Shown: positions 3,690-58,471 of the stretch, piece by piece
How the letters are laid out: every line of letters starts with the position of its first letter
Numbering within the stretch: position 1 is the first letter of the stretch
Notes under the pieces: generated by a model
The model's input: only the letters and a program-made list of their open reading frames with translations
Told to the model about the DNA's origin: nothing
The model's database searches: none
From: a virus
Lineage: Duplodnaviria > Caudoviricetes
Strand: one strand, 5' to 3'
Virus record (IMG/VR): IMGVR_UViG_3300010348_001730
Location: 1 to 64,000 of that record
Length of the DNA: 64,000 nt
Translations under genes and position numbers: made by a program

Positions 3690-3699
3690 AAAATAAATT

Positions 3700-6600: not shown

Positions 6601-9600
6601 GAAACATCTTCACCTTATATAGATCAAATGGGTGAAGTTGGTAAAAAATTCTATAGTGGTGATAAAATAAATCAAGCTGATGCTCAAGCATATATTACAC
6701 CAGCAAGATGGAAATTTTTACTTGAAAGACTTGGTCAATTTGGTAACAATGAAAAAAAGGTATGGAATAAGATACAAAGAATGGAGAATGGTGAAAATGT
6801 AGAATTTAATACTAAAGAATTAAAAACTCTTTCTACAAAACCTTTAAAAGGAGTTTATTTCTCTAACGAAAATAATAATCCAGTGTACCTTAAATACTCT
6901 CAAACAGTGCTTTTAAAATCTCTTGTTAAAGGTACACCATTAGAACAATTGTTAAATCAAATGGAATCTCAAAATATATCTGAAGCTATTATGAATTCAG
7001 GTGTAAAAGTTGGAGCTAAATTAACTGAAAATAATACGTCTCAAAGTATTTTAAATTTAGAAAAAACTACTCTTAATTCAATACCTCTCGATAATAGATT
7101 TTGGAAATTACAACAAGATTTACCAAATAAAGGTTTTAAACAAACTCTTTTAGGTTCTCAAATTCAAAAAAATATTTTTGATAATTTTAATTTTGAAGGG
7201 GTTTATAAATTTGGTGATAAAACTTACACAGGAGAAGAAGTTTATGAGAATATACATTCAGCTATTGGAGAAATATCTAATAGAGGTATTACTAAAATAG
7301 TTAAAAAATTTCAAATTGATTCTAATTATATTATACGTAACTGGTCTCAATTCTCTAAAGAAATAGCAGACCAATTACGTAAAGAAAAAATTAATGAAAA
7401 CATTATTAAAGCTGTTGAAAAAGAATTAACACCTTATGTAATACCTCAAGCTAAAGATAAGATTCTTTCAACAATAATGAGTATTATTAATAAATCTGCA
7501 ATAAAATTAAAAACAAATGGTGGGTCGTTAATTCAAATGTCTAATTTTGGATTAGATCAAAATATTAAATCTGATACAGGTATTAGATGGTTAATTGATC
7601 CACAGCAATTAGCAGAACCTAGAAAAATTTTACAAGAAGATGGTACACCTTTAGTTATACCTGGACAGTGTTTTATATCAGGTAATTTATTAGGACAATA
7701 TATTCCTAATTGGAGAGAATATAGTAATGAAGAATTATTTGGAAATAATGGTATATTCCCAAAAGAAATTTTAAAAATGATTGGATATAGAATTCCTAAT
7801 CAAGCAATGTCTTCTAATGATGCTTTAGATATTGTAGGAATTCTTCCTGATACTTATATTGATACAATAGTTCCTTATACTGGTATTACAACTAAAACAG
7901 GATCTGACTTTGATATTGATAAAATGTTTATAATTCTTCCTTCATTTAGACCTAAATATACTAACAATGTTAAACTTTTAAATGAAGTTTACAAAGGAAA
8001 AACTATTTCTGAAACTACTGAATTATTAGCAGATCCATTAGATGAATTTAATATTCCTAACGAAATATCTAATGAAGATATTGTTAGAATGATGTTGTCT
8101 GATAAAGAAGATGGTGATATGAAAGAAATTATAAATTTTTATAGAGATATTGTTTTGTCTAATATTTTTAACAATAAAAAACTTTCTAAAGAATTCAGAA
8201 AAATCAATAAAGATTATATTAAAGTAGAAAAAGTAGAATATATTCATTTTGATGAAAATAAACTTATGAAAGAACAATCTACTGAAGCTATTAATAATAG
8301 ACTTTTTGAAATGTATCATTCAATTCTTACACAGCCAAGTAATTATGATAATTTAATTACACCAATTGATCATGCACATATTAAAGATTTTATTACTAAA
8401 ACTCTTTTTCCAGAAACAAATGTATTAAAAGATTATAAAGCTTTTTCTGCATTGTATCAGGTAGATATGAAATATGAATTTATTGCTGGTTCTTTTGGAA
8501 TAGGTCAAGTAGCAAATCAATTAGTTGATTCAGTAATGAATCAGGTTTCTCAAGAAAGACTATATCTTTATTTAGGTTGGGGAAATTATGATGAAATTCT
8601 AACTGATTCTAAATCAATATCTGAAAAAAGAAAAGTTACTGTTTTTGATAAAAAAGGAGATAAAGGTATTTATGATGAAGAAAATGCTTATAAAATAACA
8701 GATAGTTTAACTGCTTTATTAAATGGATTTGTGGATATTGCAAAAGATCCTTATATTACAAGAGGTAATTGGAATACTCAAACAACCAATACTGGAGCAA
8801 TGTTGTTAAGAGCAGGAGTACATCCTTATAAAGTTCTTTCATTTTTAGCACAACCTTCGTTAGTTGAAATGGTAAATATTACTTCTGAAAGAGAAGGTAT
8901 CTTAACAAAAAAAGGATCTTCTTCAACTGTAATTACTGAATTAAAAGATAAATATTTATTATTATTTAAAAAATCATTAATTTCAAATGGTATTTTAAAA
9001 TCGCAAAAAGACGATTACTGGAATGTTATTTTAAAAGATATTTCTAACAGAAATAAAACAGAATTAAATATTTCTGAAGATGTTATTACTACTAATAAAA
9101 TTCAAAATAGATCTTTAGATATTCTTGTAAAACATATTTCAGATAATAGATTAGATGTTGAAAAAGATTCACAATATTATCTTGATCAATATTTAACTTT
9201 AAAAGAATATGAAAGAATAAAACCTATTGTAAAAGAATTTACAAAATCAGTAGGATCTTCAAAATATGGAGAATCAGGAACAGGAAAATCATTAATTGAA
9301 CACATTATTCAAAGTAATAAAACCTCAGATGTTTATTATAAGAATATGATTGTGAATTTTGATAAAAAATTCTTTAATTTAGAACATCTTTCAGAAGGAA
9401 TTACTTCTTTAGGAACTTTTCATAAAAATACAGAAGTTTTTATGAATAACTTAATAAATAATAATCCTAAATTATTTATTACAGGTAATGATTTTTTTAA
9501 AGAAATAATGAATGAAATGTCTTCTGAAATTCATAAAAATAAAAAATATTTAGATGATGAAGAAATTGGAAAAATATTTGAACAATCATTTTACACAATG

Positions 9601-11112: not shown

Positions 11113-11465
11113 TGGATATAAAACAATTTTTATCTTCTCTATTTGAAATAGAGATAAATATACACATAGCTCATTTACAAACTACAAGTTTTTCAGAACA
11201 TAAAGCATTAGATGAAGTTTATACTGGAATTATAGATTTAAGAGATAGATTTATAGAATCTTATCAAGGTAAATATGGAGTTTATAAAGGATATCAATCA
11301 TTTCAAATTAAAGAAGCTATTGATCCTATTAATTATTTAAAAGAATTTTGTACTTTGTATGAAGAGTTTAGATTAACTTTAGAAGAAGGCTATTTACAAC
11401 AAATAACTGATGATATTTTAGAACTTTTTTACAGTGCAATATATAAATTAAAAACATTAAAATAA
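11112..11465 (+). CDS. Small ferritin/Dps-like four-helix protein (DUF5856-like)
   Basis: 'HIAHLQTTSFSEHKALDEVY...DRFIESYQGKYG...YKLKTL' pattern; ATG at 11112 overlaps the RNAP stop codon. Confidence 0.7.
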   Translation: MDIKQFLSSLFEIEINIHIAHLQTTSFSEHKALDEVYTGIIDLRDRFIESYQGKYGVYKGYQSFQIKEAIDPINYLKEFCTLYEEFRLTLEEGYLQQITDDILELFYSAIYKLKTLK

Positions 11466-11466
11466 T

Positions 11467-14400
11467 ATGAATAAACATTGTGTTAATCATAAAAATAAAG
11501 ATGTAGTAGACATAGCAAATAGTCTGGGTATTCACCCAGCTATTGCTGCGTCTAAAATTGCAATATGGCAAGAAAATAATGGTTTAGATAAATTTCCAAC
11601 AGTTGATGATTTAAATACAAGTTCTCAAAATCAACTTAAAAAAGAAATAGGTATTACTAATGGTAAAGAAATTTCTAATCAACAATTAATAAATATCAAA
11701 TCTAAAATTGCAAAAAAAAATAAAGAAAATATTAAGCTTGGAATACCTTTTAATTATCAAATAGAATATAAAAATATTTACGGAGATACTTATAATTATA
11801 CACTTAAAAAATATAAAGGTAATACAAATATTGCTAAAAAGATAGAAAGAGAAAATCAAAATATTGTAGATCCTTCTCAAAAAATTAAAAATAAAACATT
11901 AAATACTGATTCACAATTAAATTTATTTGATTCTAAAAAAAACTTTAAGAATTTAATTGGAGATAAACAAGTTTTTGGAGTATATAAAGAAGATGTTGAA
12001 GAAGATTTTCAAAAAGAATCAATAAAAGAAAAAATATCTTCAATTCTTTTCAATGGAAATATTGAAAATTTAAGTGCAAAAGAAGTATTATTAAATATTT
12101 TAAATTCAGGATTTTATAAAAATAATTCATTAAAATCAAATTTAATAAATAAACTTTTAGATACTGATGCTAAAGTTAATATTGTTGAAAGTTTTGACAA
12201 CAATGATACTTATATGAATTATGATTCTAAAAATAAAACAATTAATATTTCTGAAAATACTTTAGCTTACGTTGATTCTGTTGAAGAAGGTATTTCTAAA
12301 TTTTTACACGAAGTTATTCATAATAAAACAATTTCTACATTAAGAAATCCTAAAACTTCAGAAGAATTAAAACTTGTAGGAGATATTAAAAAAGAATATG
12401 TAAAAGTCAAAAATTTTTTAAAAGAAGATTATTCTCACGAATTATCTTCAATTGAGGAATTTACAGCTGCAATGTTTAGTAATAAAGAATTTGAAACAGA
12501 AGTAAAAGAATTGTTAAATAATAATAATTTTTGGAATAGTATTAAAAACTTTATTAAAAAAATATTTAATTTACCAAGTACATACGATAAGTTATTAGAA
12601 AATATTATTGATCTTTCAGAAAAAGAAAGTTCTGATTTTTTTGAAGACACTTTAGATTCAAAATATAATATAGGATTAAAAAAAAATGAAAAAAAGAATT
12701 CTTTAAATGATTTATCACATAAAATAAATGAAGTTTTAAAAGTATTAGAAATACAATCTTCAAGATTAGGTGAAAATTCTAAATTTAGAAAAAATTTAAA
12801 GAATACTACATCTCAAATAAAAGAAGCTGAAAAAAAGTTTGAAAATAATCTTGATGAATATCGTAAAGAAACAATTTCTGTATTTTTAAATTTTATGACA
12901 GACCAACTTTATAGAGTTGAATCTAGAATTAGCAACGATAAAATATTTAATAGTAGACTTTTTAATTCAAGTAAAGCTTACATTGATTCATTTATATCAA
13001 TTCAAGAAGATATTGATAACGCTTTAAATGAATTATTTAAATCAGAAATTCTTTCTGAAGAAGAATATTCAAAAATGAATAATTTGTTAAAAAATCTAGA
13101 AGGTGTTGCATTAAGATCAAAACAAGAATTAATAAAATCAGGAAAAAATTATATTAAATCAAATAACGGACAATTTATTAAAGGATATAGAGAGATTGAA
13201 TTAAAACATAAATATTTATACGAAAAAGAAGGTCGCGAAAAAGGTTATTTTGGAAATAATTTACAAGAATATGTTAATAAAAAAATGTCAGAAAATAGAG
13301 ATTTAATAAAAAAAGAAACTTCTGAAGATTTTAATAACATGTTAGATCATCCTATAGTAGATATTGATTCTTTATCAACAATGTTTAATTCTGAAAAAGA
13401 TTTTAATCATCCAATAATTAATATATTTTCATCAATTTTAGATAAAGTTAAAGATTTATATGAAAATAATATTCAAACAAAACTAGTTAATTTGCAAGAA
13501 AAAACTGATTCTTTTTTAAAAGACAAACGATTAAAATCTTCAGATGAAAATTTTAAAAACATGATTGAAATTTCAAAATCAGGAACTGTATTTTTAAAAG
13601 GAAATTATAAAATTGAATATTATGATTTGATAGAAGATTTAACAAATAAAAAAGAAAAAGCATTTAAAGAATTTGGTAAAGACTCTGAAGAATATAAAAA
13701 AGCTGTTGAAGATTTTGCAAACTTTATTAAAGAAAACACTATTGAATTAGATGATTTTAGAAAAGTACCTATTGAAAAATGGAAAAATGATTTTAAAGAC
13801 CTTACAGAAGATGAAAAAAGTTATTTAAAAGTTATTCAAAATTTAGCAAAAGAAAGTGATAGTTCTTATGGTATTAAAACCAAAAGTCTAAAAAAAACAG
13901 TAGGTTATGCAAGTTTTTATGAATTACCTAAGATAAGAAAATCACAAATTTCTTCATTAAAATCAGGAAATTTGATAGAAACAGCTAAAGAATTTTATAA
14001 TGAAACATTTACTAGACAAACAGACCAAGAAGATTTAGGACAAGAAGAATTTGAAAATAATATTTATAAAGTTTATACTAATCTTTCTGGTAAAGAAGTT
14101 AAATATGTACCTATTCATTATAGAATTCCTATTGATTTAAAACATCAATCTATTGATTTACCTACAATTTATGCTTTAGAATATCAAAATGCAGTTAAAT
14201 TTAAACACAAAAATATTGTAGCAAATGATCTTTTAATGTTTAAAGATGTAATTCAAGAAGGTAAATTTATTAAAAAGAAAGGTTTTGGTTCTAGAATAAT
14301 TTCAAGTGTTTATAATAAAAATAATACAGCTATTGAATACACTAAAGAAGATGCTCATTTAATTAAAATGTTAGATACAATTTTAAATAATAGATTGTAT

Positions 14401-15747
14401 GATAAAACTAACGAATATGCTGGAAAAATATTTGGTCAAGATGTTAATAAAGTAGAATCTTTTTTAAGAGGTACCATTTCTAAAGCATCAATGGCTTTAA
14501 ACAGTATTGGAGCACCTGCAAACTTAATTACAGGTAAAGCTCAAAATTTATTTGAAGTCATAAGAGATCCTAACTTGACATTAGATAATGTTAAAAATGC
14601 TGAAAAATATTATTATACTCATTTAGGAGGATTTATTGATGATATAGGTAGAAATGTTTATAAATCTATTGGTAATCAATTATTATTATCTTATGGAGGT
14701 TTAGTTTCTTCACATATGCTTCAAAATAATTTTGAAAAAAATAAAACGTTAGCTCTATTAAATGATAAACCTTTATATTTCTTTCAAGAAAGTGGTGAAC
14801 ACCATATTGCAGCAATTCATACAATGACAATTTTAGATTCTGCAAAAATTTTAGATAAAAATGGAAATTATTTAAACAGTAAAGGTCAAATTGTATCAAA
14901 TAAACAAGATGCTGCTAGTTTACTAGATATTTCTGTCATTGAAAAAGGAATGCTTACAACAACAATTAAAAAACCTTTTTATACAACTCTTGATAAAATA
15001 AATGAGTTTTCAAGAGGTGGTAAAAGTACAGTAAGGTCTTATATTCAATCATCTTTAATAAAAGCACAAGGTAATTATGGTTATGAATATACTTCAGAAT
15101 TACAAAGACATTTTTATGGTAAAGCATTGTTTCATTTTAAAAAACACATTATTTCTCCAGCATTATCAAGATGGAGAGGTATTAGTACAAATTTAGGAAA
15201 AGATGAAGATGTTATTTTAAAATATAATTATGATTTACAAAGACCTGATGAAGGTAATTATGTCACAACAATTCGTTTTATTAAAAATGTAGTTTTACCT
15301 AAAATTAAAGCTTTTCAATTATCTTTAATAATAAAAGAATTTAAAGATCGTGATTCTTGGGAACAAGCTAACATTAGAAGAACTTTTACAGAATTAGCTG
15401 TTATTTCAACATTTGCTTCACTTGCATATTTATTTGCAGCATCAGCAGGAGACGATGATGATGAAATGTGGTTTGCTGCAGCAGTATTTAGAAGACTTCA
15501 ATCTGAAGCATCACAATACTATGATATTACAGAAGCATGGAGAGTATTAAAAAATCCAATTAGTTCTTTAGCTTTTTTAGAATCAACTAGTAAATTATTA
15601 GGATCAATAACTAATTTTATAGATCCTTTCACAGATGACAGATTAGAACATTTTGAAAAAAATACAGTAAATATGACTAAATTTATTCCAGGTAATAAAA
15701 TCTTTAAAGAACCTAAAGAAGCTTTTGAATACTTGAATAGAAACTAA
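11467..15747 (+). CDS. Large virion cargo protein with zincin-like metallopeptidase motif
   Basis: 1426 aa; 'FLHEVIH...SSIEEFTAAMFSNKEF' (HExxH plus downstream E) at ~12307; C-terminal hydrophobic helix; third giant gene of the crAss-type cargo block. Confidence 0.75.
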   Translation: MNKHCVNHKNKDVVDIANSLGIHPAIAASKIAIWQENNGLDKFPTVDDLNTSSQNQLKKEIGITNGKEISNQQLINIKSKIAKKNKENIKLGIPFNYQIEYKNIYGDTYNYTLKKYKGNTNIAKKIERENQNIVDPSQKIKNKTLNTDSQLNLFDSKKNFKNLIGDKQVFGVYKEDVEEDFQKESIKEKISSILFNGNIENLSAKEVLLNILNSGFYKNNSLKSNLINKLLDTDAKVNIVESFDNNDTYMNYDSKNKTINISENTLAYVDSVEEGISKFLHEVIHNKTISTLRNPKTSEELKLVGDIKKEYVKVKNFLKEDYSHELSSIEEFTAAMFSNKEFETEVKELLNNNNFWNSIKNFIKKIFNLPSTYDKLLENIIDLSEKESSDFFEDTLDSKYNIGLKKNEKKNSLNDLSHKINEVLKVLEIQSSRLGENSKFRKNLKNTTSQIKEAEKKFENNLDEYRKETISVFLNFMTDQLYRVESRISNDKIFNSRLFNSSKAYIDSFISIQEDIDNALNELFKSEILSEEEYSKMNNLLKNLEGVALRSKQELIKSGKNYIKSNNGQFIKGYREIELKHKYLYEKEGREKGYFGNNLQEYVNKKMSENRDLIKKETSEDFNNMLDHPIVDIDSLSTMFNSEKDFNHPIINIFSSILDKVKDLYENNIQTKLVNLQEKTDSFLKDKRLKSSDENFKNMIEISKSGTVFLKGNYKIEYYDLIEDLTNKKEKAFKEFGKDSEEYKKAVEDFANFIKENTIELDDFRKVPIEKWKNDFKDLTEDEKSYLKVIQNLAKESDSSYGIKTKSLKKTVGYASFYELPKIRKSQISSLKSGNLIETAKEFYNETFTRQTDQEDLGQEEFENNIYKVYTNLSGKEVKYVPIHYRIPIDLKHQSIDLPTIYALEYQNAVKFKHKNIVANDLLMFKDVIQEGKFIKKKGFGSRIISSVYNKNNTAIEYTKEDAHLIKMLDTILNNRLYDKTNEYAGKIFGQDVNKVESFLRGTISKASMALNSIGAPANLITGKAQNLFEVIRDPNLTLDNVKNAEKYYYTHLGGFIDDIGRNVYKSIGNQLLLSYGGLVSSHMLQNNFEKNKTLALLNDKPLYFFQESGEHHIAAIHTMTILDSAKILDKNGNYLNSKGQIVSNKQDAASLLDISVIEKGMLTTTIKKPFYTTLDKINEFSRGGKSTVRSYIQSSLIKAQGNYGYEYTSELQRHFYGKALFHFKKHIISPALSRWRGISTNLGKDEDVILKYNYDLQRPDEGNYVTTIRFIKNVVLPKIKAFQLSLIIKEFKDRDSWEQANIRRTFTELAVISTFASLAYLFAASAGDDDDEMWFAAAVFRRLQSEASQYYDITEAWRVLKNPISSLAFLESTSKLLGSITNFIDPFTDDRLEHFEKNTVNMTKFIPGNKIFKEPKEAFEYLNRN

Positions 15748-49802: not shown

Positions 49803-50591
49803 TCATAAATTGGTTTTTAAAATATCTTTTAAAATATTAAAATTAGAAGAATACTTATCATTTTTATGATAATTATTCAGGACGCCTAAATGAAAAAGAG
49901 TTTCTTGGAAAGATTTACTTTGATAAGTTATAAAACTTACAAATTCTTCCACATCTGCTCTTAAAATATATTTTACAACTCGAATGTTGAAAATAAATTT
50001 TTCATTACGAATAATATCATTAACAGTTCTAAGATTATAAACTGCTCGATGATTTAAATCATGTTCGATACTTGGTATATTACCAGTATACTCAGCAAGA
50101 TAGGTAAAAATAACGTCATTTTGAATTTTTTCTCTTTCAAGAATTTCTTTAATTCGCATTTCATGACTGCCTGTTATTTTAATATCATCTACAAAGACAA
50201 GAATTTCTCCTTCACGAATACATGATTTATCAAGATACATCATGTCTGATGAAATAGCAGCAATACGATCTTCTTTATTCATCAATCCATAATCGTCATC
50301 ATAAGAATACTCTCTAAAAATTTTAGATTGTTTAATTATGATATTTTTTTGAATAAATTGATTTGCTAAAGATGAAAGTAAATAATCTTTTAAAGCATTA
50401 CTTGCTGCGGGAACATTGTTGTAAGGTGCTGCATAAAAAACTAATGTAGAACCTTCTTGAAAATCACAAACTTGAGCTAATTGTTGACCAAATTTTCTAG
50501 CTTGTGTTTTACTACCATGTTTGAATTTACTGTAGTCTTGATAAAAGTCTTCAGTAAAACTATCTGATTTAATTAAACTTATTGTCTGCAT
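49803..50591 (-). CDS. Phosphoribosyltransferase-like protein of the Ter cluster
   Basis: 'YSKFKHG', PRPP-loop 'VFVDDIKITGSHE'. Confidence 0.75.
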   Translation of the reverse strand: MQTISLIKSDSFTEDFYQDYSKFKHGSKTQARKFGQQLAQVCDFQEGSTLVFYAAPYNNVPAASNALKDYLLSSLANQFIQKNIIIKQSKIFREYSYDDDYGLMNKEDRIAAISSDMMYLDKSCIREGEILVFVDDIKITGSHEMRIKEILEREKIQNDVIFTYLAEYTGNIPSIEHDLNHRAVYNLRTVNDIIRNEKFIFNIRVVKYILRADVEEFVSFITYQSKSFQETLFHLGVLNNYHKNDKYSSNFNILKDILKTNL

Positions 50592-51217
50592 CTTTCTGAA
50601 ATAATGTGATAAGCATCTTTAATTGTTCTGGAATTACTATTAATAATTATTGGTTCAGATCCAGCTCTTTTAGCACCTAAATAATCAGTATTATGATTAT
50701 CACCAATATGATAATGACTTTTACTATACATTTCTTTATTAGGTTTACTAACCAAAAGATCACTACTAAAATTAAAATTCGTAAAATAATTAAAAATACC
50801 TAAATTATCAATTATTGTAAATAATGTTTTAGCTTCAAGTAATAATGTATTACTACTTAATATTAAAAGATGATTTTCTGATAATAAACGGAGATATTTA
50901 ATCGTATCTTCACTATAAAGTAATGGTGGATATTTAATAGCTAAATCTTGATAAGCTCTGTAAAACTCAATAGTTTTTAATAAATTTGGATCTGAAGGAC
51001 TGAAATAACTATTTAATAATTTAATAATTAATTCTTTTGAAGGTTGCCAACCAGTTCTTTCAATAATACAATCAAGATTGTTTTTGATAGTTTTAAAATT
51101 GTGATTACTAAGCATTTCACTACAAGAAAAAAACTCTTTTGTAAGTTCTGTTTTCTTTAAATGAAATAATGGAGAACTCTTAATAAGAGTTCCCCATAAA
51201 TCTATACTAATATTCAT
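50579..51217 (-). CDS. HAD-superfamily hydrolase of the Ter cluster
   Basis: 'IDLWGTLI', 'SSN', 'SKP', 'HIGDN..TD..GA'. Confidence 0.8.
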   Translation of the reverse strand: MNISIDLWGTLIKSSPLFHLKKTELTKEFFSCSEMLSNHNFKTIKNNLDCIIERTGWQPSKELIIKLLNSYFSPSDPNLLKTIEFYRAYQDLAIKYPPLLYSEDTIKYLRLLSENHLLILSSNTLLLEAKTLFTIIDNLGIFNYFTNFNFSSDLLVSKPNKEMYSKSHYHIGDNHNTDYLGAKRAGSEPIIINSNSRTIKDAYHIISERCRQ

Positions 51218-51231
51218 TTAGACTTTTAATT

Positions 51232-51336
51232 TTATGACCAATTAATAGTCTTAACCCAGGCTACAATTTTAGCTCCCCAACCAAGGAAAGTTTCTAAAAC
51301 CATACCTATGACAATACTGATAATAGTTGATAGCAT
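51232..51336 (-). CDS. Small membrane peptide (34 aa, not in the ORF track)
   Basis: MLSTIISIVIGMVLETFLGWGAKIVAWVKTINWS*; ATG overlaps the vWA gene stop. Confidence 0.45.
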   Translation of the reverse strand: MLSTIISIVIGMVLETFLGWGAKIVAWVKTINWS

Positions 51337-52052
51337 TATTTAATAAGGTTTAAATTTCTTGCTTGAGCAACCCATCCAGGAAACTCATTCATCAATGACG
51401 GATAGAGTTGAGAGTCTGGGAAATTCTTAATATCTGAGATACTAAAGAAATTCGCATTATCAATTTTTCTACCTTTTAGATCATCAAGTTTTTGTAAAAA
51501 ACTAAATGATTCTCTTCCAATACCTACAAATTGTATGAAAAAGCCTTGTTCAGACATACTTCTTACAATATCTTCAGTTTCTGATCTATCAAAATTATCA
51601 CCATCAGTGATAAAAATGATATATACAGGATCTTTCATTTTACCAGGAGTACCGCCAAGACCAAGGAATGAACCTTGTTTTTTAGGTGCAAAATCACGTT
51701 GAATTTCTCTCAACACTGGAGCATAATTAGTACCACCCATAGAGTATTTACCAATTACTTTATTTTGAATGTAGCCATCCAAATTTTTCAAAGTGATGTT
51801 TTCAGGTAATTTAACTGAGCCGTTTTCAAACAAATAGAAATCAACTTCTCCATTGTCATCAAAAGCTAAACCAAGTGGTAAAATTCTTTCTACGGTATCT
51901 TGTACAGTACCGTTTGCATAAAGACTTCCCATTGAACCAGAGTAGTCCAGAGCCAGTACAACTTGAGCTTTTTGAGAACCTAATCCCATATCTTTTTTCA
52001 AGTTAAGTACTGACTCTTTTCTTTCTCTAAGCTTTACTAAATCTAACGCCAT
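51336..52052 (-). CDS. vWA domain protein (TerF-associated type)
   Basis: 'LDYSGSM', 'FDDNG', 'GGTNYAP', 'FITDG', 'QFVGIG', 'DNANFF'. Confidence 0.85.
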   Translation of the reverse strand: MALDLVKLRERKESVLNLKKDMGLGSQKAQVVLALDYSGSMGSLYANGTVQDTVERILPLGLAFDDNGEVDFYLFENGSVKLPENITLKNLDGYIQNKVIGKYSMGGTNYAPVLREIQRDFAPKKQGSFLGLGGTPGKMKDPVYIIFITDGDNFDRSETEDIVRSMSEQGFFIQFVGIGRESFSFLQKLDDLKGRKIDNANFFSISDIKNFPDSQLYPSLMNEFPGWVAQARNLNLIK

Positions 52053-52053
52053 T

Positions 52054-52692
52054 TTATTGATGTTGAGATAATAAAGCGTTTAAATCTCCTGTAAATCCTT
52101 GACCTAAAGCACGAACTTTTAGATCTTCATTGTTCCAGTAGATTTCACCAACAATTACACCTGATTCAATTGAGAAATCCTCTTTCAAATCATAGCGAAT
52201 ATGTTCTTTACCATCAGAACCTTTGATGCTGCAATAAGCTCCATCAACCATTCCCATAGCTTGTTTTCTCTTATCTGCTTCGTAAATATTTACGGCAATA
52301 AGAATTTTCTTGTCTTTTGGTAATAGAGAAGAATTGATGAATAAAGTTTCATCATCTCCATCACCTTGGCCGGTACGATTGTCTTTAGTAATTACAACAG
52401 GAGCATTTGCTAAAATACTCTTAGCTGTGGCCACCACATCTGTTGAAGAAGCATACGCGACATCAGAAGAGGTTCCTTTACCATCAACATTACCATAGAA
52501 AAAGAAATTTGCTTCTGTAGCACCTTTTCCATCACTGGCATTAACAATAAGACCAACAACATCAAGATCATAATCATCTTTGACACTGCTGTCATTTTTA
52601 ACATTCCAACCTAAACCAACTTGAAGTTCATTTAAGTTTAGATCAGCTTTCTCTAACTTGAGATTCTGACCTTTTTGAAGTGATAGTGACAT
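52054..52692 (-). CDS. terD: TerD-family stress protein
   Basis: 'LSLQKGQN', 'VGLGW', 'DLD', 'DNRTGQGDGDDE', 'RALGQG'. Confidence 0.9.
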   Translation of the reverse strand: MSLSLQKGQNLKLEKADLNLNELQVGLGWNVKNDSSVKDDYDLDVVGLIVNASDGKGATEANFFFYGNVDGKGTSSDVAYASSTDVVATAKSILANAPVVITKDNRTGQGDGDDETLFINSSLLPKDKKILIAVNIYEADKRKQAMGMVDGAYCSIKGSDGKEHIRYDLKEDFSIESGVIVGEIYWNNEDLKVRALGQGFTGDLNALLSQHQ

Positions 52693-52712
52693 ATAAAAAA
52701 TTTAAAAATTTA

Positions 52713-53438
52713 CTAATTGTTTTTCTTACCAAACATGATAGGAAATAGGAATACAGTCAATGTAATAGCACTAAATATTAAATCAGTGTTATGTCCATTA
52801 AGAATTGCGTGAATTTTTGTTTCTGGAAAGAAATCAAATATTCCTGCTAAAGCCATTTTAAGACCTAATAGTAATATTACGTAAAATACACTTAATTCTA
52901 ATGAAGGATATTTATTAAGTATTGATGAAAAATATTGTGCAACAAATCTCATAGCTAATATACCTAATGCTACAGCACTACATACAATCCAGAAATTATT
53001 ACTTAGACTGACAACTGCTACCAGATTATCAATACTAAATACAATATCTAAAAATTCCACCATTACTACTGTAGTCCAGAATTTATTTAAACCTATCCAA
53101 TTACATAATTTTTGTAACCAACCTGGTTCTTTTCCTTCTTCAACACTATCAGGTTCTACTGTTAAATGTGTGTAAAACAAATGACATAAATACAATCCAC
53201 CTGCAATTTTAAACCACGCTCCTACAGAAGGATTATAAATAATCCAACTTACAAAAGCTAAAGATAATCCTCTAAAAAGATAAGCTCCAATAATACCATA
53301 TGTCATGGCATGTTTTCTTTGTTTCTCATCTTTTAAATTTTTGTTAACAATAACTGCAATAACGCTCGCATTATCAACACTAAGTATAACTTCAATCAAT
53401 AAGATATTAAGAAATACTAAAATACTTGTTGTAATCAT
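52713..53438 (-). CDS. terC: TerC-family membrane protein
   Basis: 'EVILSVDNASVIA', 'YGIIGAYLFR', 'DIVFSIDN', 'GILAMRF'. Confidence 0.9.
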   Translation of the reverse strand: MITTSILVFLNILLIEVILSVDNASVIAVIVNKNLKDEKQRKHAMTYGIIGAYLFRGLSLAFVSWIIYNPSVGAWFKIAGGLYLCHLFYTHLTVEPDSVEEGKEPGWLQKLCNWIGLNKFWTTVVMVEFLDIVFSIDNLVAVVSLSNNFWIVCSAVALGILAMRFVAQYFSSILNKYPSLELSVFYVILLLGLKMALAGIFDFFPETKIHAILNGHNTDLIFSAITLTVFLFPIMFGKKNN

Positions 53439-53796
53439 AATAATTGGTTTTAACTGTTTTCTTTTTTTTTTAATTTACGTAATGTTTGATCTTTTCAATA
53501 TTTATATTATTATGCTGATAACCTTTCTTGAGTTGGTTACGAGGACTGGATACCTCCATCTTATAGGTTACGAGCCTAATGAGCATTATATAAATATTAT
53601 TCAATCAGTCAGAGCATACCTGAATATTTAGCTGAAGACTTAATTTATGAATTTTAAAAATGATAAAGTTAGCACCCTCTTGTCTTATTCACAGAATGGC
53701 AACCTTAATAGGTAATCTCTGCTATTATAAGAGTAGGGTCACGTAGTTTGGTGTTTCAACTCACCAGATTGTTCGCCAAAGCTTTTTTTACTACTT

Positions 53797-53892
53797 GCTG
53801 AGAACTCATTTGTGTTATGTAGCTAATAGATTTCTCTATAATGTTTGCTTATTGCTACCTGCTTTGATTCCTTTCTCAAGGGAACAACACAT
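53797..53892 (-). ncRNA. Candidate structured RNA with pseudoknot
   Basis: UGUGUU/AACACA closing stem, UUCC/GGAA hairpin whose loop UGAGAA is complementary to downstream UUCUCA, AUAGA-GAAA-UCUAU hairpin; lies in a 1 kb ORF-free region. Confidence 0.4.
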
Positions 53893-54516
53893 CTAGGATT
53901 ACTCCAAATAAAACTTTTGAGATAAAACTGCAAGTTTGCAAACTTTGTTATTCATATTTTTATTTATCCTGTCAATTCAGGATTAGTATCTTTATGTAAA
54001 TTAATAAGAATGGACTTTAAAAGTCTGACAAACTTTTTCTTATTTACAAAGGTATTCAATGTTTAACCTTTATTTTATTTTAAAAAGTTAAATATCTCTT
54101 ATACATAATACTATTACATATTACGTTCTGTACTTTCTTTTTTCTAATTAGATTTCTAATCCTTATTAGTTATAGATTTCCCTCAAGATACAATTTCTTA
54201 TTCCTAGGAAGACTTGTCACTTATGAGTAAGACTTACGTGAAGGTAGTTCTACCATCATTAATATTTAACTTTTATATTTTAAAAAATCACTTGTCCATA
54301 TCTAGTGGAATAACTTCATACTACACCCCAGTTACGAGGATACCCTCACTACTTCAAACAGCCCATTCAGCACTTTATACATTACGCCTAAGTAGTTACT
54401 CTATTATTTTTCATTAACCTTTACAATAAACACAACTGCTAGTACAGTTTTAATAAGGAGCTTTGTTTCAAGCATTAGAAATCTCTGACATATTTGTTTA
54501 TCTTCAAGCAAGTGAT

Positions 54517-55163: not shown

Positions 55164-55193
55164 TTTTGTTTTTATGAGGAATATCCTCTTTAG

Positions 55194-55550
55194 TGGAGAC
55201 GGGGAGAGTCGAACTCCCGTCATACTAATTTTTCAATAAAATAAATTTACAGCTTTTAGGGTCAAAAGTTTTTGACTACCACCACTTCATTTTATGGTTG
55301 AAGAACCTCGATAGCAATTTTATTAATTGTCAATTTCCTATTTAAGCTTAGGCAGCTACTAACATTGGTGCAACATAAGTTCCTTTACCAATAACAGTTT
55401 CGCTATTAAGAATATTATGAACTACTTTCATGTTAGCTTTTACTTGGTTGTTTTCTACGTTTCCGTTTATTGAATTTCACCTTAGTTTACAGTTATCTCT
55501 CTGGCTGTTTATTTTACTTACTAGATTCGCATTCAAATCCATTCGTCCCC
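55194..55550 (-). ncRNA. ssrA: tmRNA
   Basis: 5' GGGGACG pairs with 3' CGUCUCC-A with G3.U Ala identity; GGAUUUGA 5' motif; GGGAG-UUCGACU-CUCCC T arm; internal tag ORF 55464-55348 ending LVAA*. Confidence 0.9.
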
Positions 55551-55663: not shown

Positions 55664-56765
55664 TCAGATTAATTTTAATAATTCAAATTTCAGTTTTGAT
55701 TTTTTATTGTTGCTGTAATTAATCTTTTCAACTTACATTTTTTTTTCGAGGACTAGTTGCTGACCAATTCGCATAGTTAAATTCGATTCGAACGAATATA
55801 CACCAGTTTTAATCTAAAATTGCTGTTAGTAAGTTTGTCAGATAACTCCGATATTCCACACCAAGTGCCTCGGCTATAGGGCTAGGGAATCGAACCCATT
55901 TCGTCTCTTGTGACAAAAAAGTGATAGAGTGAAATTTGCTGTTTGTTATCTTATCAGTAGTGCTTTTTTTGAAGTAATCGGATTTGCAGTCTGAGTTTCA
56001 TAAAAAATTTGCTGTGACACTACTTTTCAATTTCCATTTTAACGAATACAAATTAAAAGTTTGTTGTTTATAAATTTGCTGTTAGGAAATTTATCAGCTT
56101 TCATTTTTTGACAACCAGTCTTCAAGATAGGAATCGAACCTCTCTAGAGCATAATGGAGCTTAAATGTAATTTGCTGTTAGAAAGCTTTTCAGATCATAT
56201 AATAATACGTGCTCTAACCAACTGAGCTAAAGATAAGACATTCTTATCCTCTCAGACTCGAACTGAGGACCACGAGGTTGACAGCCTATTTATAAATTGC
56301 AGTAAATGATCTTGTCAGAATGTATTTTACGTTGTGTTACATTACACCATGTTGAACGAATGTTCTCACTGGATTTTTACCAGAACCACGGCACCAAAAG
56401 CTTTTAAATTGCTGTTGACATTCTTATCAGGATACATCTGGTTTTTCAAAGTATAGAAAGTTTTGAATTGCTGTAAATATCCTTATCCTCCTAGTTTCCT
56501 AGGGGATTAAATGAATGAGTTTTCATTATGTTTACAATCAGACATTTAGTATTGAACAGGTGTAGTTTCAATATCTGAAGTTATTAAATAATGTTTCTCA
56601 TTTTCGTAGCGTGTCTAATTTTTAGTATTTAGATTTGCTGTTTCTACACCTAAATATCAGCTTGTTATAGCTGTATTGTTAGGGGTGCTCACTTGCAGGC
56701 TGTGAGTTAGTCTTAATATAGGTAAGATTTATAATTGTGAGTTTGCAGTTCATAACCTGACAGGT
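55664..56765 (-). repeat. Tandem array of stem-ACAGCAA RNA units carrying tRNA-like inserts (Y-RNA-like)
   Basis: 9 abutting units (55664-56485) plus 2 looser units; each is a 7-bp stem, 2 nt, AC(A/U)GCAA, variable insert, complementary stem, GAHA linker. Confidence 0.85.
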
Positions 56766-56791
56766 TAAGTAATGCCGTCCACCCCATATCT

Positions 56792-58471
56792 TTACATCTT
56801 TATCAGATGCATTATTTCTTGATCCATTGCTGCTTCAAATAATTCGGCAGCAGTTGAAGGTGCTTTTTTCTCAGCTTGTTCTTCTGTTCCTGTAAGGAAT
56901 GCTACAGTAGAACCATCATAGCCTGAAAAATAAAAAATGTTTTTTACATCACCATAAGTTTCAAATTTATTTCCAGCTCCTCTACGTTGAAGATTCCATA
57001 AAACAATTTGAAAATTAGCAACATATTCTTTAGAAAATCCTGCATGTTTTAATAACTGTAATGCTGATTCAACATTAGTCTTGTTTAATTGACCGGGATT
57101 AAATTCATTATCTGAAATACAAAGTATTCCTGTAGGAAATTCTGATTCAGAAATACCTTTTGATTTAATAGAACATAATAGTTGAATTACTGATAAAAAT
57201 TCTGTACTACCAACATAATGGCTGCTATCATTTACCCATTTTTCATAAGGTGTAGAACCTTTCCAAAAATGTAATTTTGCAGAACTATTAAATTCTATCC
57301 AAGCATTAGCAAAAGCACCTTTAGGTAACATTTCACTGAAGAATAAAGCTAAAGCTTTTGCAATACCAAAACAAGATTGCGTTGTACCTGTAGCTGGTGA
57401 AATCATAGATCCAGAAGTATCTCTTACTACAATAAGTGAAGTATTTTGATTAGCTCCTTTTTTGGCAGTTTCAACTAATCCTCTAAATTGAGAATTTAAA
57501 GTATCAATTTGATATTTCTTTTGAGATATCTTAGTAAACAATTCATGAGGATATCCTGTAAATTTAGCAACAGGTCTTGACTCAATCCATTTCTCATACT
57601 TAGCTTCTAATTTATTATTAGCTAAATATTTACCGGACACCATTAAAGCTAATGCTCTACCATGTACAGTATCAAAATCTACAAGGTTATGTTTACCTTG
57701 TGAAATTAATTGTTGCCATTGATGTGCAGTACCAGATGTTTTAAGCTTTCTATATGTTCTATAGTTTTTATAATTATCCTCTTGTGTTTTACCACCAAAT
57801 AATAAACTACAAATCCATTTAGCAATAAGATTATCTGCTTGAGCTTCAACAGTATTACATTTAGAATTGGCTTTTATTTGTGGTAAATATTTCTTTACGA
57901 GATTTGTAGAATTTTCATTCTCAAGTCCAGCTAATAATAATTTACCAAAATTATTCCAATCTAATTGTCTATCTTTCCAACCATTGTATTGTAAATCATA
58001 AGATAACATTTGAATAATATCTTTCCATGAACCAGCAGAAATGTATAATTGGATATTGTTCCAAAATACATTTTTGTGGTTGATTGAAAGCCATATCATT
58101 CTAACAATACCTTCATGTCTCAATCCAGAACCTCTTTGAACTGATTTAGTTTTTGTACCATCAAATAATGATACAACACGAGTAATCATTCTAATAAAGA
58201 AGATTAAACAAACAGTTAATCTTGGATTTTTTCCATACAACGTGGAAACATCTCTTGAGATATCTGAATAGCTTCTAGGACTTTTCATTGTTCCAAGCTG
58301 TCCAAATTGATCTACAAAATCATTACCTGTTGTAGAGTATTTTATTGCTCCATTTTCTGATTTAACAGTAGCTGTTTTTTGTTGCGCTGCTGATAAAAAA
58401 GAATTTTTTGTTGCAACATTAGAATCAGATGATGAGGTTGAAAACAACCTACTTTTTTTTGCTTCAAACAT
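56792..58471 (-). CDS. TROVE/Ro60-related protein (DUF2828-like helical domain + vWA)
   Basis: 'GNDFVDQF', 'GSGLR', 'GSWKD', 'KYLP', 'YRKL', 'YPHEL', MIDAS 'VVRDTSGSM', 'ISDNEFN', 'IVLWNL', 'SGY'. Confidence 0.8.
   Translation of the reverse strand: MFEAKKSRLFSTSSSDSNVATKNSFLSAAQQKTATVKSENGAIKYSTTGNDFVDQFGQLGTMKSPRSYSDISRDVSTLYGKNPRLTVCLIFFIRMITRVVSLFDGTKTKSVQRGSGLRHEGIVRMIWLSINHKNVFWNNIQLYISAGSWKDIIQMLSYDLQYNGWKDRQLDWNNFGKLLLAGLENENSTNLVKKYLPQIKANSKCNTVEAQADNLIAKWICSLLFGGKTQEDNYKNYRTYRKLKTSGTAHQWQQLISQGKHNLVDFDTVHGRALALMVSGKYLANNKLEAKYEKWIESRPVAKFTGYPHELFTKISQKKYQIDTLNSQFRGLVETAKKGANQNTSLIVVRDTSGSMISPATGTTQSCFGIAKALALFFSEMLPKGAFANAWIEFNSSAKLHFWKGSTPYEKWVNDSSHYVGSTEFLSVIQLLCSIKSKGISESEFPTGILCISDNEFNPGQLNKTNVESALQLLKHAGFSKEYVANFQIVLWNLQRRGAGNKFETYGDVKNIFYFSGYDGSTVAFLTGTEEQAEKKAPSTAAELFEAAMDQEIMHLIKM

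What the first reader, a model, noticed from the sequence alone, without database searches (positions are those of the whole stretch)
55664..56652. Array units display different tRNA anticodon arms: possible decoy panel against anticodon nucleases
Seen in sequence (- strand), clearer cases: ACAAA-CUUUUAA-UUUGU (Lys UUU, unit 56027-56093); UCAGA-CUGCAAA-UCCGA (Cys GCA, 55954-56026); CUUUU-UUGUCAC-AAGAG (Asp GUC, 55838-55953); AGG-CUGUCAA-CCU (GUC, 56190-56314); GC-UUUUGGU-GC (Gln UUG, 56315-56426). Weaker cases: CUACGAA (Arg ACG, 56556-56652), UUUAAGC and AUUAAAA (Leu UAA, 56094-56189 and 55728-55837), UCAAA-ACUGAAA-UUUGA (Ser/Phe-like, 55664-55727). The short units keep only the anticodon arm, so they cannot act in translation. 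Established: host defences such as PrrC and PARIS AriB cut tRNA-Lys, and RloC/VapC-type toxins cut other anticodon loops. Inference: the RNAs act as protein-stabilised decoy substrates or inhibitors for anticodon nucleases, or titrate tRNA-modifying enzymes or synthetases.
Basis: partly seen in the sequence, partly recalled or inferred. Interest (0 to 1): 0.85.

Follow-up and report, generated by a model that had tools for sequence, protein, structure and literature searches.

The report
Anticodon-arm mimics on phage Ro60-partner RNAs
A crAss-like gut phage encodes ten small RNAs in a row behind a Ro60-shaped RNA-binding protein; about half carry a copy of a tRNA anticodon loop, a design that recurs far above chance in related phages and looks like bait for proteins that read or cut tRNA anticodons, though nobody has tested this.

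Summary
The stretch holds ten tandem RNA units on the minus strand. Each is closed by a 7-9 bp stem whose sequence differs between units, followed by ACAGCAA, and most units are joined by 4-nt GAYA linkers. The array lies directly behind a gene whose predicted fold is Ro60.

Five units show an anticodon-like arm:
- Lys UUU and Asp GUC are canonical.
- Cys GCA has one mismatch in the stem.
- Gln UUG and a second Asp GUC are short hairpins stacked on a tRNA-like body.

In this window alone the signal is marginal (p about 0.02-0.1). Across 263 non-redundant units from 74 related loci it is decisive: 66 canonical arms against 10.8 expected. Loops are often letter-identical to real phage tRNA loops while the stems differ. 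G37 occurs mostly with G36, as in the real tRNAs of these loci. Lys UUU is over-represented (13 of 66 mimics against 12 of 307 real tRNAs).

So tRNA anticodon mimicry is real and under selection. The decoy-for-anticodon-nuclease function is plausible but untested.

This scan has found the same system, and the same anticodon display, on other DNA several times. I found no published description.

The parts
56792..58471 (-). Gene for a 559-aa Ro60-like protein (helical ring plus vWA domain); the presumed partner of the array RNAs
   Evidence: Pfam DUF7788 at 5.8e-10 and weak DUF2828, no TROVE hit. AlphaFold2 model with pLDDT 83 and pTM 0.83. The top 12 Foldseek PDB hits are all Ro60/Rsr/phage phiLo Ro60 over the full length, E 4e-6 to 7e-4.
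56558..56651 (-). U1, 94 nt. Handle AGGUGUAG/CUACACCU plus ACAGCAA.
56429..56483 (-). U2, 55 nt. Handle plus a hairpin UUCAAA/UUUGAA with an 11-nt loop. Best Rfam match is Dictyostelium Class I RNA, 32 bits, below the cut-off of 41.5
56317..56424 (-). U3, 108 nt. Handle, then GC-UUUUGGU-GC directly followed by CGU (56401-56388), which pairs with ACG after a D-like arm. This gives a composite 5-bp arm with a Gln UUG loop. The tRNA-like body is degenerate
   Evidence: Relatives share the layout: L023 UUCUGGU, L005 UUUUCAU, L057 AUUUCAA, L075 AUUUUAA. UUUUGGU is also the loop of real tRNA-Gln genes in related loci.
56192..56312 (-). U4, 121 nt. Handle (ACUGCAA variant); AGG-CUGUCAA-CCU-CGU (56287-56272; Asp GUC loop); T arm 56268-56248; loop-capped acceptor 56247-56233; D arm plus ACG 56229-56208. 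A circularly rearranged tRNA mimic of the YrlA type
   Evidence: Rfam YrlA model positions 24-84, 28.1 bits, E 0.0026, below the cut-off of 69. Relatives: L009 AGC-CUCUUAC-GCU-CGU, L040 AUC-CUGUUAA-GAU-CGU. The structure is feasible at -20.1 kcal/mol against an MFE of -26.9.
56096..56187 (-). U5, 92 nt. Handle plus T-arm-like AGAGG-UUCGAUU-CCUAU.
56029..56091 (-). U6, 63 nt. Handle plus a bare Lys-type arm: stub AAC/GUU, a bulged A, then ACAAA-CUUUUAA-UUUGU (56064-56048). No acceptor, T or D arm
   Evidence: The CUUUUAA-type (Lys) loop occurs in units of 26 of 81 loci with different stems. All five stem pairs show compensatory changes. It is identical to the commonest real tRNA-Lys loop of the related loci.
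55956..56024 (-). U7, 69 nt. Handle plus UCAGA-CUGCAAA-UCCGA (55994-55978): a Cys GCA loop with one A.C mismatch in the stem
   Evidence: CUGCAAA is the loop of 10 of 11 real tRNA-Cys genes in related loci. The same loop occurs as cargo in L006 6298-6356 and L012 1918-1977.
55840..55951 (-). U8, 112 nt. Handle; CUUUU-UUGUCAC-AAGAG (55921-55905; Asp GUC); short T arm GGG-UUCGAUU-CCC (55897-55885); then a conserved 3' module ...GGCACUUGGUGUGGAAUAUCGGA
   Evidence: Units of the same type in L010, L024, L025, L056, L018 and L089 carry other loops, such as AUUUGGA and UUUGGAU.
55730..55835 (-). U9, 106 nt. Handle; weak UUAG-AUUAAAA-CUGG (55817-55803; Leu UAA-like, two G-U pairs); T arm AUUCG-UUCGAAU-CGAAU (55797-55781); a D arm resembling those of long-arm tRNAs
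   Evidence: The arm itself is at chance level.
55666..55725 (-). U10, 60 nt. Handle (ACAGCAA followed by CAAUA), and hairpin UCAAA-ACUGAAA-UUUGA (55699-55683): a 7-nt loop with C at position 33, so not anticodon-like

Best explanation
The ten units are small RNAs cut from one transcript. They share a "handle": 5' A-G plus 5-7 variable base pairs, then single-stranded ACAGCAA(A/U)UU, with a closing ...C-U 3' arm. Eight of the nine junctions are 4-nt GAYA linkers; U1 and U2 are separated by a 74-nt gap. The handle most likely docks each RNA on the Ro60-like ring protein encoded just upstream, as Y RNAs dock on Ro60.

The variable inserts are tRNA mimics of graded completeness:
- a whole L-shaped body with a capped acceptor (U4, and a degenerate version in U3);
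- a 3'-half-like anticodon arm plus T arm (U8, U9);
- a bare anticodon arm (U6, U7).

Five units expose a 7-nt loop with U33 and a purine at 37, carrying Lys UUU, Cys GCA, Gln UUG and, twice, Asp GUC. I infer that the particle presents these loops as baits to proteins that recognise tRNA anticodon loops. The most likely targets are host anticodon nucleases, so the RNAs would act as competitive decoys or traps that spare the real tRNAs.

Shown here: the anatomy, the link to the gene, the fold of the protein, and the excess and tRNA-like rules of the loops. Inferred: expression and processing, protein binding, and any effect on nucleases.

My odds: about 0.85 that the anticodon mimicry is real and selected; about 0.3 that anticodon nucleases specifically are the target.
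For: Handle and linkage:
- Ten units have different but always paired stems and the ACAGCAAWT motif (8 in the array, against 1.5 expected in the whole window).
- The same handle lies on the gene's strand in 81 of 95 related loci: 328 units against 22 on the opposite strand.
- No protein-coding neighbour is shared by more than 15 of 94 loci.

Protein: predicted Ro60 fold.

Mimicry:
- 66 canonical arms against 10.75 +/- 3.28 in shuffles, in 263 non-redundant units (0 of 300). For short units, 36 against 3.2.
- U33 is 62% against 29% expected.
- All five stem pairs of the Lys-type arm covary while the loop stays CUUUUAA.
- 12 of 13 composite arms keep U33 and R37, with 10 different anticodons.
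- 34 of 58 mimic loops are identical to a real tRNA loop of the same anticodon, although the stems differ at a median of 4-5 of 10 nt.
- G37 goes with G36 in the mimics (Fisher p 2.5e-5), as in the 307 real tRNAs of the loci.

Target:
- Lys UUU makes up 13 of 66 mimics but 12 of 307 real tRNAs (p 5e-5).
- It is established knowledge that tRNA-Lys(UUU) is the substrate of PrrC and of the PARIS effector AriB.
- The phage itself carries only tRNA-Met, tRNA-Arg and tRNA-Leu, so the loops are not copies of its own tRNA genes.
Against: - In this window alone the excess is marginal.
- Energy models do not favour the AU-rich arms. U6 in the mimic fold is -1.4 kcal/mol against an MFE of -7.0, in which the handle motif pairs with the arm. 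U7 is -2.2 against -9.0. The arms would therefore need the protein, or base modifications, to form.
- Only about a quarter of units in the family carry a canonical arm. Five of ten units here carry none.
- Apart from Lys, the anticodon repertoire is not distinguishable from that of ordinary phage tRNA genes.
- There is no evidence of expression, processing, binding or cleavage.
- No anticodon nuclease of the unknown host was identified.
- The unit parser has about 7% false positives, and it mis-parsed at least one unit (L002 6044).
Confidence: 0.5

Rival explanations
1. The mimicry is real, but the targets are other anticodon readers: tRNA-modifying enzymes (for U34, A37 or G37), aminoacyl-tRNA synthetases, or the ribosomal decoding site. 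The particle would titrate, recruit or be modified by them, or engage ribosomes stalled at particular codons.
For: - The loops obey the G36-G37 rule, which marks TrmD substrates in real tRNAs (the TrmD link is established knowledge).
- U34 is enriched: 58% against 35% expected.
- Salmonella YrlA is modified by tRNA enzymes (PMC4201824).
- A phage tmRNA gene lies immediately downstream.
- Apart from Lys, the repertoire mirrors ordinary phage tRNAs.
Against: - Eleven of 66 mimics carry Leu or Ser anticodons, whose synthetases ignore the anticodon. This weakens the synthetase version.
- The excess of Lys UUU has no obvious reason under this reading.
- A tmRNA gene lies near the system in only 4 of the 61 loci scanned (60 loci plus the window).
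Confidence: 0.25
2. The units act as a sentinel rather than a decoy. Cleavage of an exposed anticodon loop on the particle reports tRNA-directed attack and switches on a response, as damaged tRNA fragments switch on the Rtc repair operon in Salmonella.
For: - Rsr and Y RNA genes lie in the rsr-yrlBA-rtcBA operon, which is regulated by damaged tRNAs (PMC7790460, listed).
Against: No ligase, cyclase or regulator gene lies beside the system in this phage, or in more than a small subset of the 94 loci.
Confidence: 0.1
3. The arms are evolutionary leftovers. The inserts arose from captured pieces of tRNA genes, and the anticodon loops are inherited baggage with no function of their own.
For: - Long units plainly derive from tRNAs: T arms in 52 units, D arms, and variable loops such as GGGUC.
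- Many loops are identical to real tRNA loops.
Against: - The stems have diverged at 4-6 of 10 positions and covary, while the loops stay exact.
- Bare arms exist without any tRNA body, in a conserved stub-A-arm-4 nt-stub layout with swapped anticodons.
- U33 and R37 are kept in 12 of 13 composite arms.
Confidence: 0.1
4. The arms are chance hairpins in AU-rich RNA.
For: - Window-only statistics are marginal.
- U-rich loops such as CUUUUAA are among the likelier 7-mers in this base composition.
Against: - There is a six-fold excess over dinucleotide-preserving shuffles across 74 loci.
- UUU is seen 13 times against 0.43 expected.
- A mirrored control pattern is not enriched: 16 against 11.2.
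Confidence: 0.03

Closest known systems
Bacterial and phage Y RNAs of the YrlA type with Ro60/Rsr (Rfam RF02553; Chen et al. 2014, PMC4201824; structure preprint 10.1101/312249)
   Same: - Small RNAs are encoded beside a Ro60-fold protein, and their ends are closed by a stem.
- One module mimics the tRNA T arm, D arm and a loop-capped acceptor. U4 aligns to YrlA model positions 24-84.
- Several RNAs accompany each protein gene.
   Different: - The protein is not matched by Pfam TROVE; it matches DUF7788 and DUF2828.
- The handle is a short stem plus ACAGCAA, not the Ro-binding helix. The GNCGAAN0-1G motif is absent.
- There are ten units in tandem with 4-nt linkers.
- YrlA replaces the anticodon arm with the stem that leads to the Ro site. 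Here a canonical 7-nt anticodon loop is kept, or is displayed alone.
- All units score below the RF02553 cut-off.
Ro60 of Thermus phage phiLo with Yrl1 and Yrl2 (PDB 9KOP, 9L5Y; PMC12135203)
   Same: - It is a phage-encoded Ro60-fold protein, and the best structural match to the model here (TM 0.50/0.58).
- It binds phage-encoded Y-like RNAs.
- It is proposed to act against host functions: it attenuates PNPase.
   Different: - Sequence identity is only 12-15%.
- By its abstract, the paper reports two Y-like RNAs and does not mention anticodon display.
- Whether its RNAs share the ACAGCAA handle was not checked here.
Class I RNAs of Dictyostelium (Rfam RF01414; Kjellin et al. 2021, PMC7919456)
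   Same: - Length is about 60 nt.
- A short terminal stem has many compensatory changes.
- A conserved single-stranded motif, CCUUACAGCAA, lies next to the 5' arm, and the interior is variable.
- The start is AAG and the end is CUGU. Stand-alone phage units also end CUGU.
- Twelve short units match the whole model at 18-36 bits.
   Different: - All matches are below the gathering score of 41.5.
- Class I RNAs are single eukaryotic genes with their own promoter element, and are reported as unique to dictyostelids.
- Their known binder is an RRM protein.
- No anticodon-like cargo has been described for them.
- Whether Dictyostelium has a DUF2828 protein could not be tested here.
Phage tRNAs that replace or evade cleaved host tRNAs (for example T5 tRNA-Lys against PARIS, and T4 repair of PrrC-cut tRNA-Lys); from my own knowledge
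   Same: They address the same presumed conflict, namely host nucleases that cut anticodon loops, with tRNA-Lys(UUU) as the classic target.
   Different: Those are complete, chargeable tRNAs or repair enzymes. The units here cannot be charged, so they would work by competition or capture, not by replacement.

Membership tests
Y RNA / YrlA (RF02553) partner of Ro60 | Encoded next to a Ro60 orthologue | tested here: met
   The array starts 141 nt after the stop codon of a protein with a predicted Ro60 fold. The pairing recurs in 81 of 95 loci.
Y RNA / YrlA (RF02553) partner of Ro60 | Partner protein carries the TROVE domain by sequence | tested here: not met
   Pfam gives DUF7788 and a weak DUF2828 match only. 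There is no sequence match to any PDB chain.
Y RNA / YrlA (RF02553) partner of Ro60 | Reaches the Rfam gathering score | tested here: not met
   U4 scores 28.1 bits against 69. Relatives score 26-37 bits.
Y RNA / YrlA (RF02553) partner of Ro60 | tRNA-like domain with T arm, capped acceptor stem and D arm | tested here: met
   U4 aligns to model positions 24-84 with all three helices. The domain is partial or degenerate in U3, U8 and U9.
Y RNA / YrlA (RF02553) partner of Ro60 | Conserved Ro-binding helix and GNCGAAN0-1G motif | tested here: not met
   No match to the motif on the array strand. The conserved element is instead a stem plus ACAGCAA.
Y RNA / YrlA (RF02553) partner of Ro60 | Bound by the Ro60 protein | not testable with these tools
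   Needs co-immunoprecipitation or a gel-shift assay.
Dictyostelium Class I RNA (RF01414) | Short terminal stem with compensatory changes, and conserved motif ...ACAGCAA beside the 5' arm | tested here: met
   Ten units have ten different paired stems. Nine have ACAGCAA and one has ACUGCAA.
Dictyostelium Class I RNA (RF01414) | Reaches the Rfam gathering score | tested here: not met
   32.0 and 17.9 bits in the window, and up to 35.8 bits in relatives, against 41.5.
Dictyostelium Class I RNA (RF01414) | Conserved ends: AAG start and CUGU end | tested here: inconclusive
   Within arrays the junction reads ...CU-GAYA-AG..., and the true ends are unknown. Stand-alone relatives read A-AG...CU-GU.
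Functional tRNA | Cloverleaf with a free acceptor end, recognised by tRNA finders | tested here: not met
   ARAGORN and RF00005 call none of the ten units. The acceptor is loop-capped in U4 and absent in U6 and U7.
Functional tRNA | Seven-nt anticodon loop with U33 and purine 37 on a 5-bp stem | tested here: met
   Met by U6 and U8 outright, by U7 with one mismatch, and by U3 and U4 as composite stems.
CRISPR array | Identical repeats, spacers of uniform length, cas genes nearby | tested here: not met
   The conserved parts are the two halves of a stem that differs in every unit. Inserts range from 30 to 95 nt and are structured. No cas gene was seen among the window ORFs scanned.
Anticodon-nuclease decoy (functional class, not a sequence family) | Is bound or cut by an anticodon nuclease and protects tRNA or the phage | not testable with these tools
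   The support is only indirect: an excess of Lys UUU mimics.

The most novel reading that the evidence does not exclude
The Ro60-like ring plus handle RNAs form a modular display particle. Its exchangeable cargo is a kit of anticodon loops that captures or blocks tRNA-cutting defence enzymes, with the anticodon letters swapped over evolutionary time to follow the host's nucleases. The same handle in Dictyostelium Class I RNAs would then point to a shared, ancient protein-RNA partnership that reaches into eukaryotes.
Probability: 0.25. Interest if true: 0.9.

Novelty: new variant of a known kind. Interest (0 to 1): 0.7.

Why it matters
Ro60 and its Y RNAs have been known for decades, yet the purpose of the tRNA-like part of bacterial Y RNAs is still open. 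Here a large, unannotated branch of the family (3177 clusters at 50% identity) carries RNAs that expose true anticodon loops, either alone or on a tRNA-shaped body, with the anticodon letters varying between relatives.

That turns a vague "tRNA mimic" into a testable proposal: these particles engage proteins that read anticodons.

If the targets are anticodon nucleases, this would be an RNA-based counter-defence of a new type in very abundant gut phages, and a source of specific inhibitors for such nucleases. It also gives a candidate protein partner and a functional lead for the unexplained Class I RNAs of social amoebae.

Tried and rejected
- Rfam at gathering thresholds finds only the tmRNA and three tRNAs. 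The array is in no Rfam family.
- The first enrichment count was inflated because T loops (UUCGAAU) also satisfy U33/R37. I repeated it with T loops excluded, and again after removing four "units" that enclosed real tRNA genes.
- Plain MFE folding does not recover the composite arms or the AU-rich bare arms.
- MAFFT misaligned the 3' handle arms, so only the anticodon stem came out of RNAalifold.
- The sigma-70 promoter and terminator scan gave nothing above chance.
- A literature search for DUF2828 found only incidental mentions in plant and tardigrade papers. A search for decoys of anticodon nucleases found no description of such RNAs.
- The paper naming the four Class I RNA-binding proteins (Avesson 2011) is not in the library. 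No tool gave access to a Dictyostelium proteome, so the DUF2828-Class I link is untested.
- Considered and rejected: CRISPR array, functional permuted tRNA genes, and chance hairpins.
- A neighbour-gene survey found no conserved protein partner and no RNA ligase or kinase.
Full report
**Setting.** The window comes from a 93.8-kb IMG/VR virus record, estimated 94% complete. Its layout is that of a crAss-like phage, with giant ORFs at 3-15747. On the minus strand lies a 559-aa gene at 58471-56792. It is followed by the array (56651-55666), a tmRNA (55550-55193), tRNA-Arg and tRNA-Leu, and further downstream a Ter-type cluster (terC, terD, vWA-TerF, HAD, PRTase).

**Anatomy of the array.** Reading the minus strand and parsing it gives ten units of 55-121 nt.
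- Each unit begins A-G (A-A in two units), followed by 5-7 variable nucleotides.
- After 0-2 nt comes ACAGCAA(A/U)UU; one unit has ACUGCAA.
- Each unit ends with the exact complement of the variable nucleotides plus C-U.
- Eight of the nine junctions are 4-nt linkers: GAUA, GACA or GAAA. The exception is a 74-nt gap between U1 and U2.
- The stem differs in every unit but always pairs. ACAGCAAWT occurs 8 times in the array, against 1.5 expected in the whole window.

So the "repeat" is really the two halves of a closing helix plus a single-stranded motif. I call this a handle, with a variable insert.

**The neighbouring protein.**
- Pfam gives DUF7788 (a vWA-type C-terminal domain, 5.8e-10) and a weak DUF2828 match, but not TROVE.
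- No PDB chain matches by sequence.
- An AlphaFold2 model built on 20 homologues has pLDDT 83 and pTM 0.83.
- The first twelve Foldseek hits are all Ro60 proteins aligned over essentially the full length: Thermus phage phiLo (9KOP, 9L5Y), Xenopus (1YVP, 2I91, 1YVR), Deinococcus Rsr (2NVO) and human. E-values run from 4e-6 to 7e-4, with TM up to 0.58.
- The family is very large: 3177 clusters at 50% identity.

**Linkage.** I fetched 94 related loci.
- A parser for "AG-stem / ACAGCAA / stem-CU followed by G" finds 328 units on the gene's strand, against 22 on the other strand.
- At least one unit is present in 81 of 95 loci.
- In closer relatives the units are tandem with GAYA linkers. In more distant ones they are separate genes ending CUGU.
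- No protein-coding neighbour is shared by more than 15 of 94 loci.

The RNA handle is therefore the constant companion of this gene.

- U6 carries ACAAA-CUUUUAA-UUUGU inside a 3-bp stub AAC/GUU, with a bulged A before the arm and 4 nt after it. It has no other tRNA part.
- U8 carries CUUUU-UUGUCAC-AAGAG, followed by a short T arm.
- U7 carries UCAGA-CUGCAAA-UCCGA, with one A.C mismatch.
- U4 is a rearranged tRNA. It has a T arm, an acceptor stem closed by a loop, and a D arm, all enclosed by CGU...ACG. This is the YrlA layout (Rfam YrlA positions 24-84, 28 bits). The hairpin AGG-CUGUCAA-CCU sits immediately 5' of CGU, so the two helices can stack into a 6-bp arm that ends in a 7-nt loop.
- U3 has the same layout with GC-UUUUGGU-GC-CGU (2 + 3 bp), on a degenerate body.
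- The other proposals fail. CUACGAA (U1) and UUUAAGC (U5) have no stem. ACUGAAA (U10) has C33. AUUAAAA (U9) has a 4-bp stem with two G-U pairs, which is chance level, although it sits where an anticodon arm should, 5' of a T arm.

**Is it more than chance?** T loops also fit "U at loop position 2, purine at position 6", so they must be excluded; my first count was inflated by them.
- Window only, T loops excluded: 2 canonical arms (stem at least 5 bp) against 0.43 expected (34 of 400 shuffles reach this), or 4 against 1.05 with stems of at least 4 bp (7 of 400).
- Window only, loops identical to a real tRNA loop from other loci and closed by at least 2 pairs: 3 against 0.93 (139 of 2000). Taken alone, the window is only suggestive.
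- Family: across 263 non-redundant units from 74 loci, after removing four that enclosed real tRNAs, there are 66 canonical arms against 10.75 +/- 3.28 (0 of 300 shuffles). They fall in 65 units.
- Short units account for 36 arms against 3.2 expected, and long units for 30 against 7.5.
- A mirrored control pattern is not enriched (16 against 11.2). U33 is 62% against 29%, and C32 is 39% against 22%.

**Comparative tests.**
1. The CUUUUAA-type (Lys) loop is found in units of 26 of 81 loci on quite different stems, for example ACAAA/UUUGU, UUCUA/UGGAA, AUAGU/ACUGU and CAAGA/UCUUG. RNAalifold on 18 such units returns exactly the 5-bp arm, with compensatory changes at all five pairs (pair tables). 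The stub also covaries: AAC/GUU, AGC/GCU, AGG/CCU.
2. In the same stub-A-arm-4 nt-stub layout, other loci carry CUUGUAA, CUUCUAA, CUGAUAA and CUCAUAA. Only the three anticodon letters differ.
3. The composite layout of U3 and U4 recurs in 13 units. Twelve of them have U33 and R37, with 10 different anticodons.
4. The 307 real tRNA genes of these loci provide a yardstick. Their loops for Lys (CUUUUAA), Cys (CUGCAAA), Gln (UUUUGGU, AUUUGGA), Met (CUCAUAA) and Asp (CUGUCAC, UUGUCAA) are the same as, or one letter from, the mimic loops.
5. Of 58 mimics with a real counterpart, 34 have an identical loop, while their stems differ at a median of 4-5 of 10 positions. They are therefore not recent copies of tRNA genes.
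6. G37 occurs mostly with G36 in the mimics (10 of 14 G37 loops; G36: 10 G37 against 6 A37; all others: 4 against 46; p 2.5e-5). The real tRNAs show the same rule.
7. Compared with the real tRNA genes, the mimic repertoire is similar except for Lys UUU (13 of 66 against 12 of 307, p 5e-5). Gly UCC and Ala UGC mimics are absent (0 against 18 and 16).
8. The phage's own tRNAs are Met, Arg and Leu only.

**Mechanism.** What is shown:
- a conserved handle tied to a Ro60-fold gene;
- inserts that mimic tRNA to different degrees;
- anticodon loops kept by selection.

What is inferred: the RNAs are processed at the linkers; the handle docks on the ring protein; and the exposed loops engage proteins that recognise anticodon loops.

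The excess of Lys UUU points to anticodon nucleases, because tRNA-Lys(UUU) is the classic substrate of PrrC and of PARIS AriB (established knowledge). A decoy or trap is my preferred reading, at about 0.3.

Rival readings are modification enzymes or the decoding site (the G36-G37 rule, the U34 bias, and the tmRNA next door), a sentinel that reports tRNA damage, or inherited baggage.

Synthetase titration is weakened by the 11 Leu or Ser mimics. A weakness common to all readings is that the AU-rich arms are not the predicted minimum-energy folds.

**Comparison with what is known.**
- The closest system is Ro60/Rsr with YrlA-type Y RNAs. YrlA mimics the T arm, D arm and acceptor stem, but not the anticodon loop (PMC4201824).
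- The phage phiLo Ro60 with two Y-like RNAs is also close (PMC12135203).
- The units fail the Rfam cut-offs for YrlA and lack its sequence motif. The protein fails Pfam TROVE. I therefore call this a Y-RNA-like system, not a member of the family.
- The handle has the same design as Dictyostelium Class I RNAs: start AAG, a short covarying stem, CCUUACAGCAA, about 60 nt, and end CUGU (PMC7919456). Twelve short units match that model end to end at 18-36 bits, below the cut-off of 41.5. Those RNAs were reported as unique to dictyostelids.

**Novelty and precedent.** I found no paper describing anticodon display on Ro60-partner RNAs. This scan, however, has met the same protein-handle system, and the same anticodon display, on other DNA several times. 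The present window is one more instance. It contributes a ten-unit array in a crAss-like phage, plus the real-tRNA yardstick tests.

**Limits.**
- The host is unknown.
- The parser has about 7% false positives and misses or truncates some units.
- The shuffles ignore phylogeny.
- The real tRNA set was not de-duplicated.
- Nothing here bears on expression or biochemistry.

Noticed in passing
window 56484-56557 (- strand): The 74-nt gap between U1 and U2 has no ACAGCAA motif. It contains a CCUAG-GAAA-CUAGG hairpin and ends ...GGAG-GAUA like a unit end. It may be a degenerate unit or a different small RNA.
   Followed up: no
window 56652-56791 (- strand): The leader between the stop codon of the Ro60-like gene and U1 has long-range GGGGUG/CACCCC pairing and a CAGCU-AUAACA-AGCUG hairpin ending CUGAUA. 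It could be a processing or entry element for the array.
   Followed up: no
window 55193-55550 (- strand): A phage tmRNA lies directly after the array, with an unusually long predicted tag of 29 residues ending VAA. tmRNA genes also lie near the system in L005, L034 and L067.
   Followed up: partly
window 49803-53438 (- strand): A Ter-type stress cluster in a crAss-like phage: TerC, TerD, vWA-TerF, a HAD hydrolase and a ComF-like PRTase. An ATP-grasp gene and a second PRTase-like gene lie further on.
   Followed up: partly
window 53606-54509: An ORF-poor stretch of about 900 nt between tRNA-Leu and terC. Another first-stage note flags it as a possible large structured RNA. It has no Rfam hit at gathering score.
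   Followed up: no
L037 1473-7000, L044 6746-8230 and about ten similar loci: In one group of related phages the Ro60-like gene sits among NAD-salvage genes: NAMPT/NAPRTase, NAD synthase, isochorismatase-type amidase and NADAR. From my own knowledge, such genes are known to counter NAD-depleting defences. This suggests the system lies in a counter-defence neighbourhood there.
   Followed up: partly
L024 6820-6893, L025 6711-6782, L048 434-514, L056 6719-6793, L059 6938-7015: tRNA genes with anticodon CUA (amber-suppressor type) lie next to the arrays, which hints at TAG recoding in these phages. Some mimic loops carry stop-codon-reading anticodons: UCA in L024 5953-6095 and UUA in L046 6044-6158.
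   Followed up: no
L015 6540-6755: A group I intron (92 bits) lies just downstream of the array in a related phage.
   Followed up: no
L047 1714-3327; L062 6303-7751: A Band-7/SPFH protein and an AAA/STAND-like ATPase recur near the Ro60-like gene in small subsets of loci (6-7 each).
   Followed up: no
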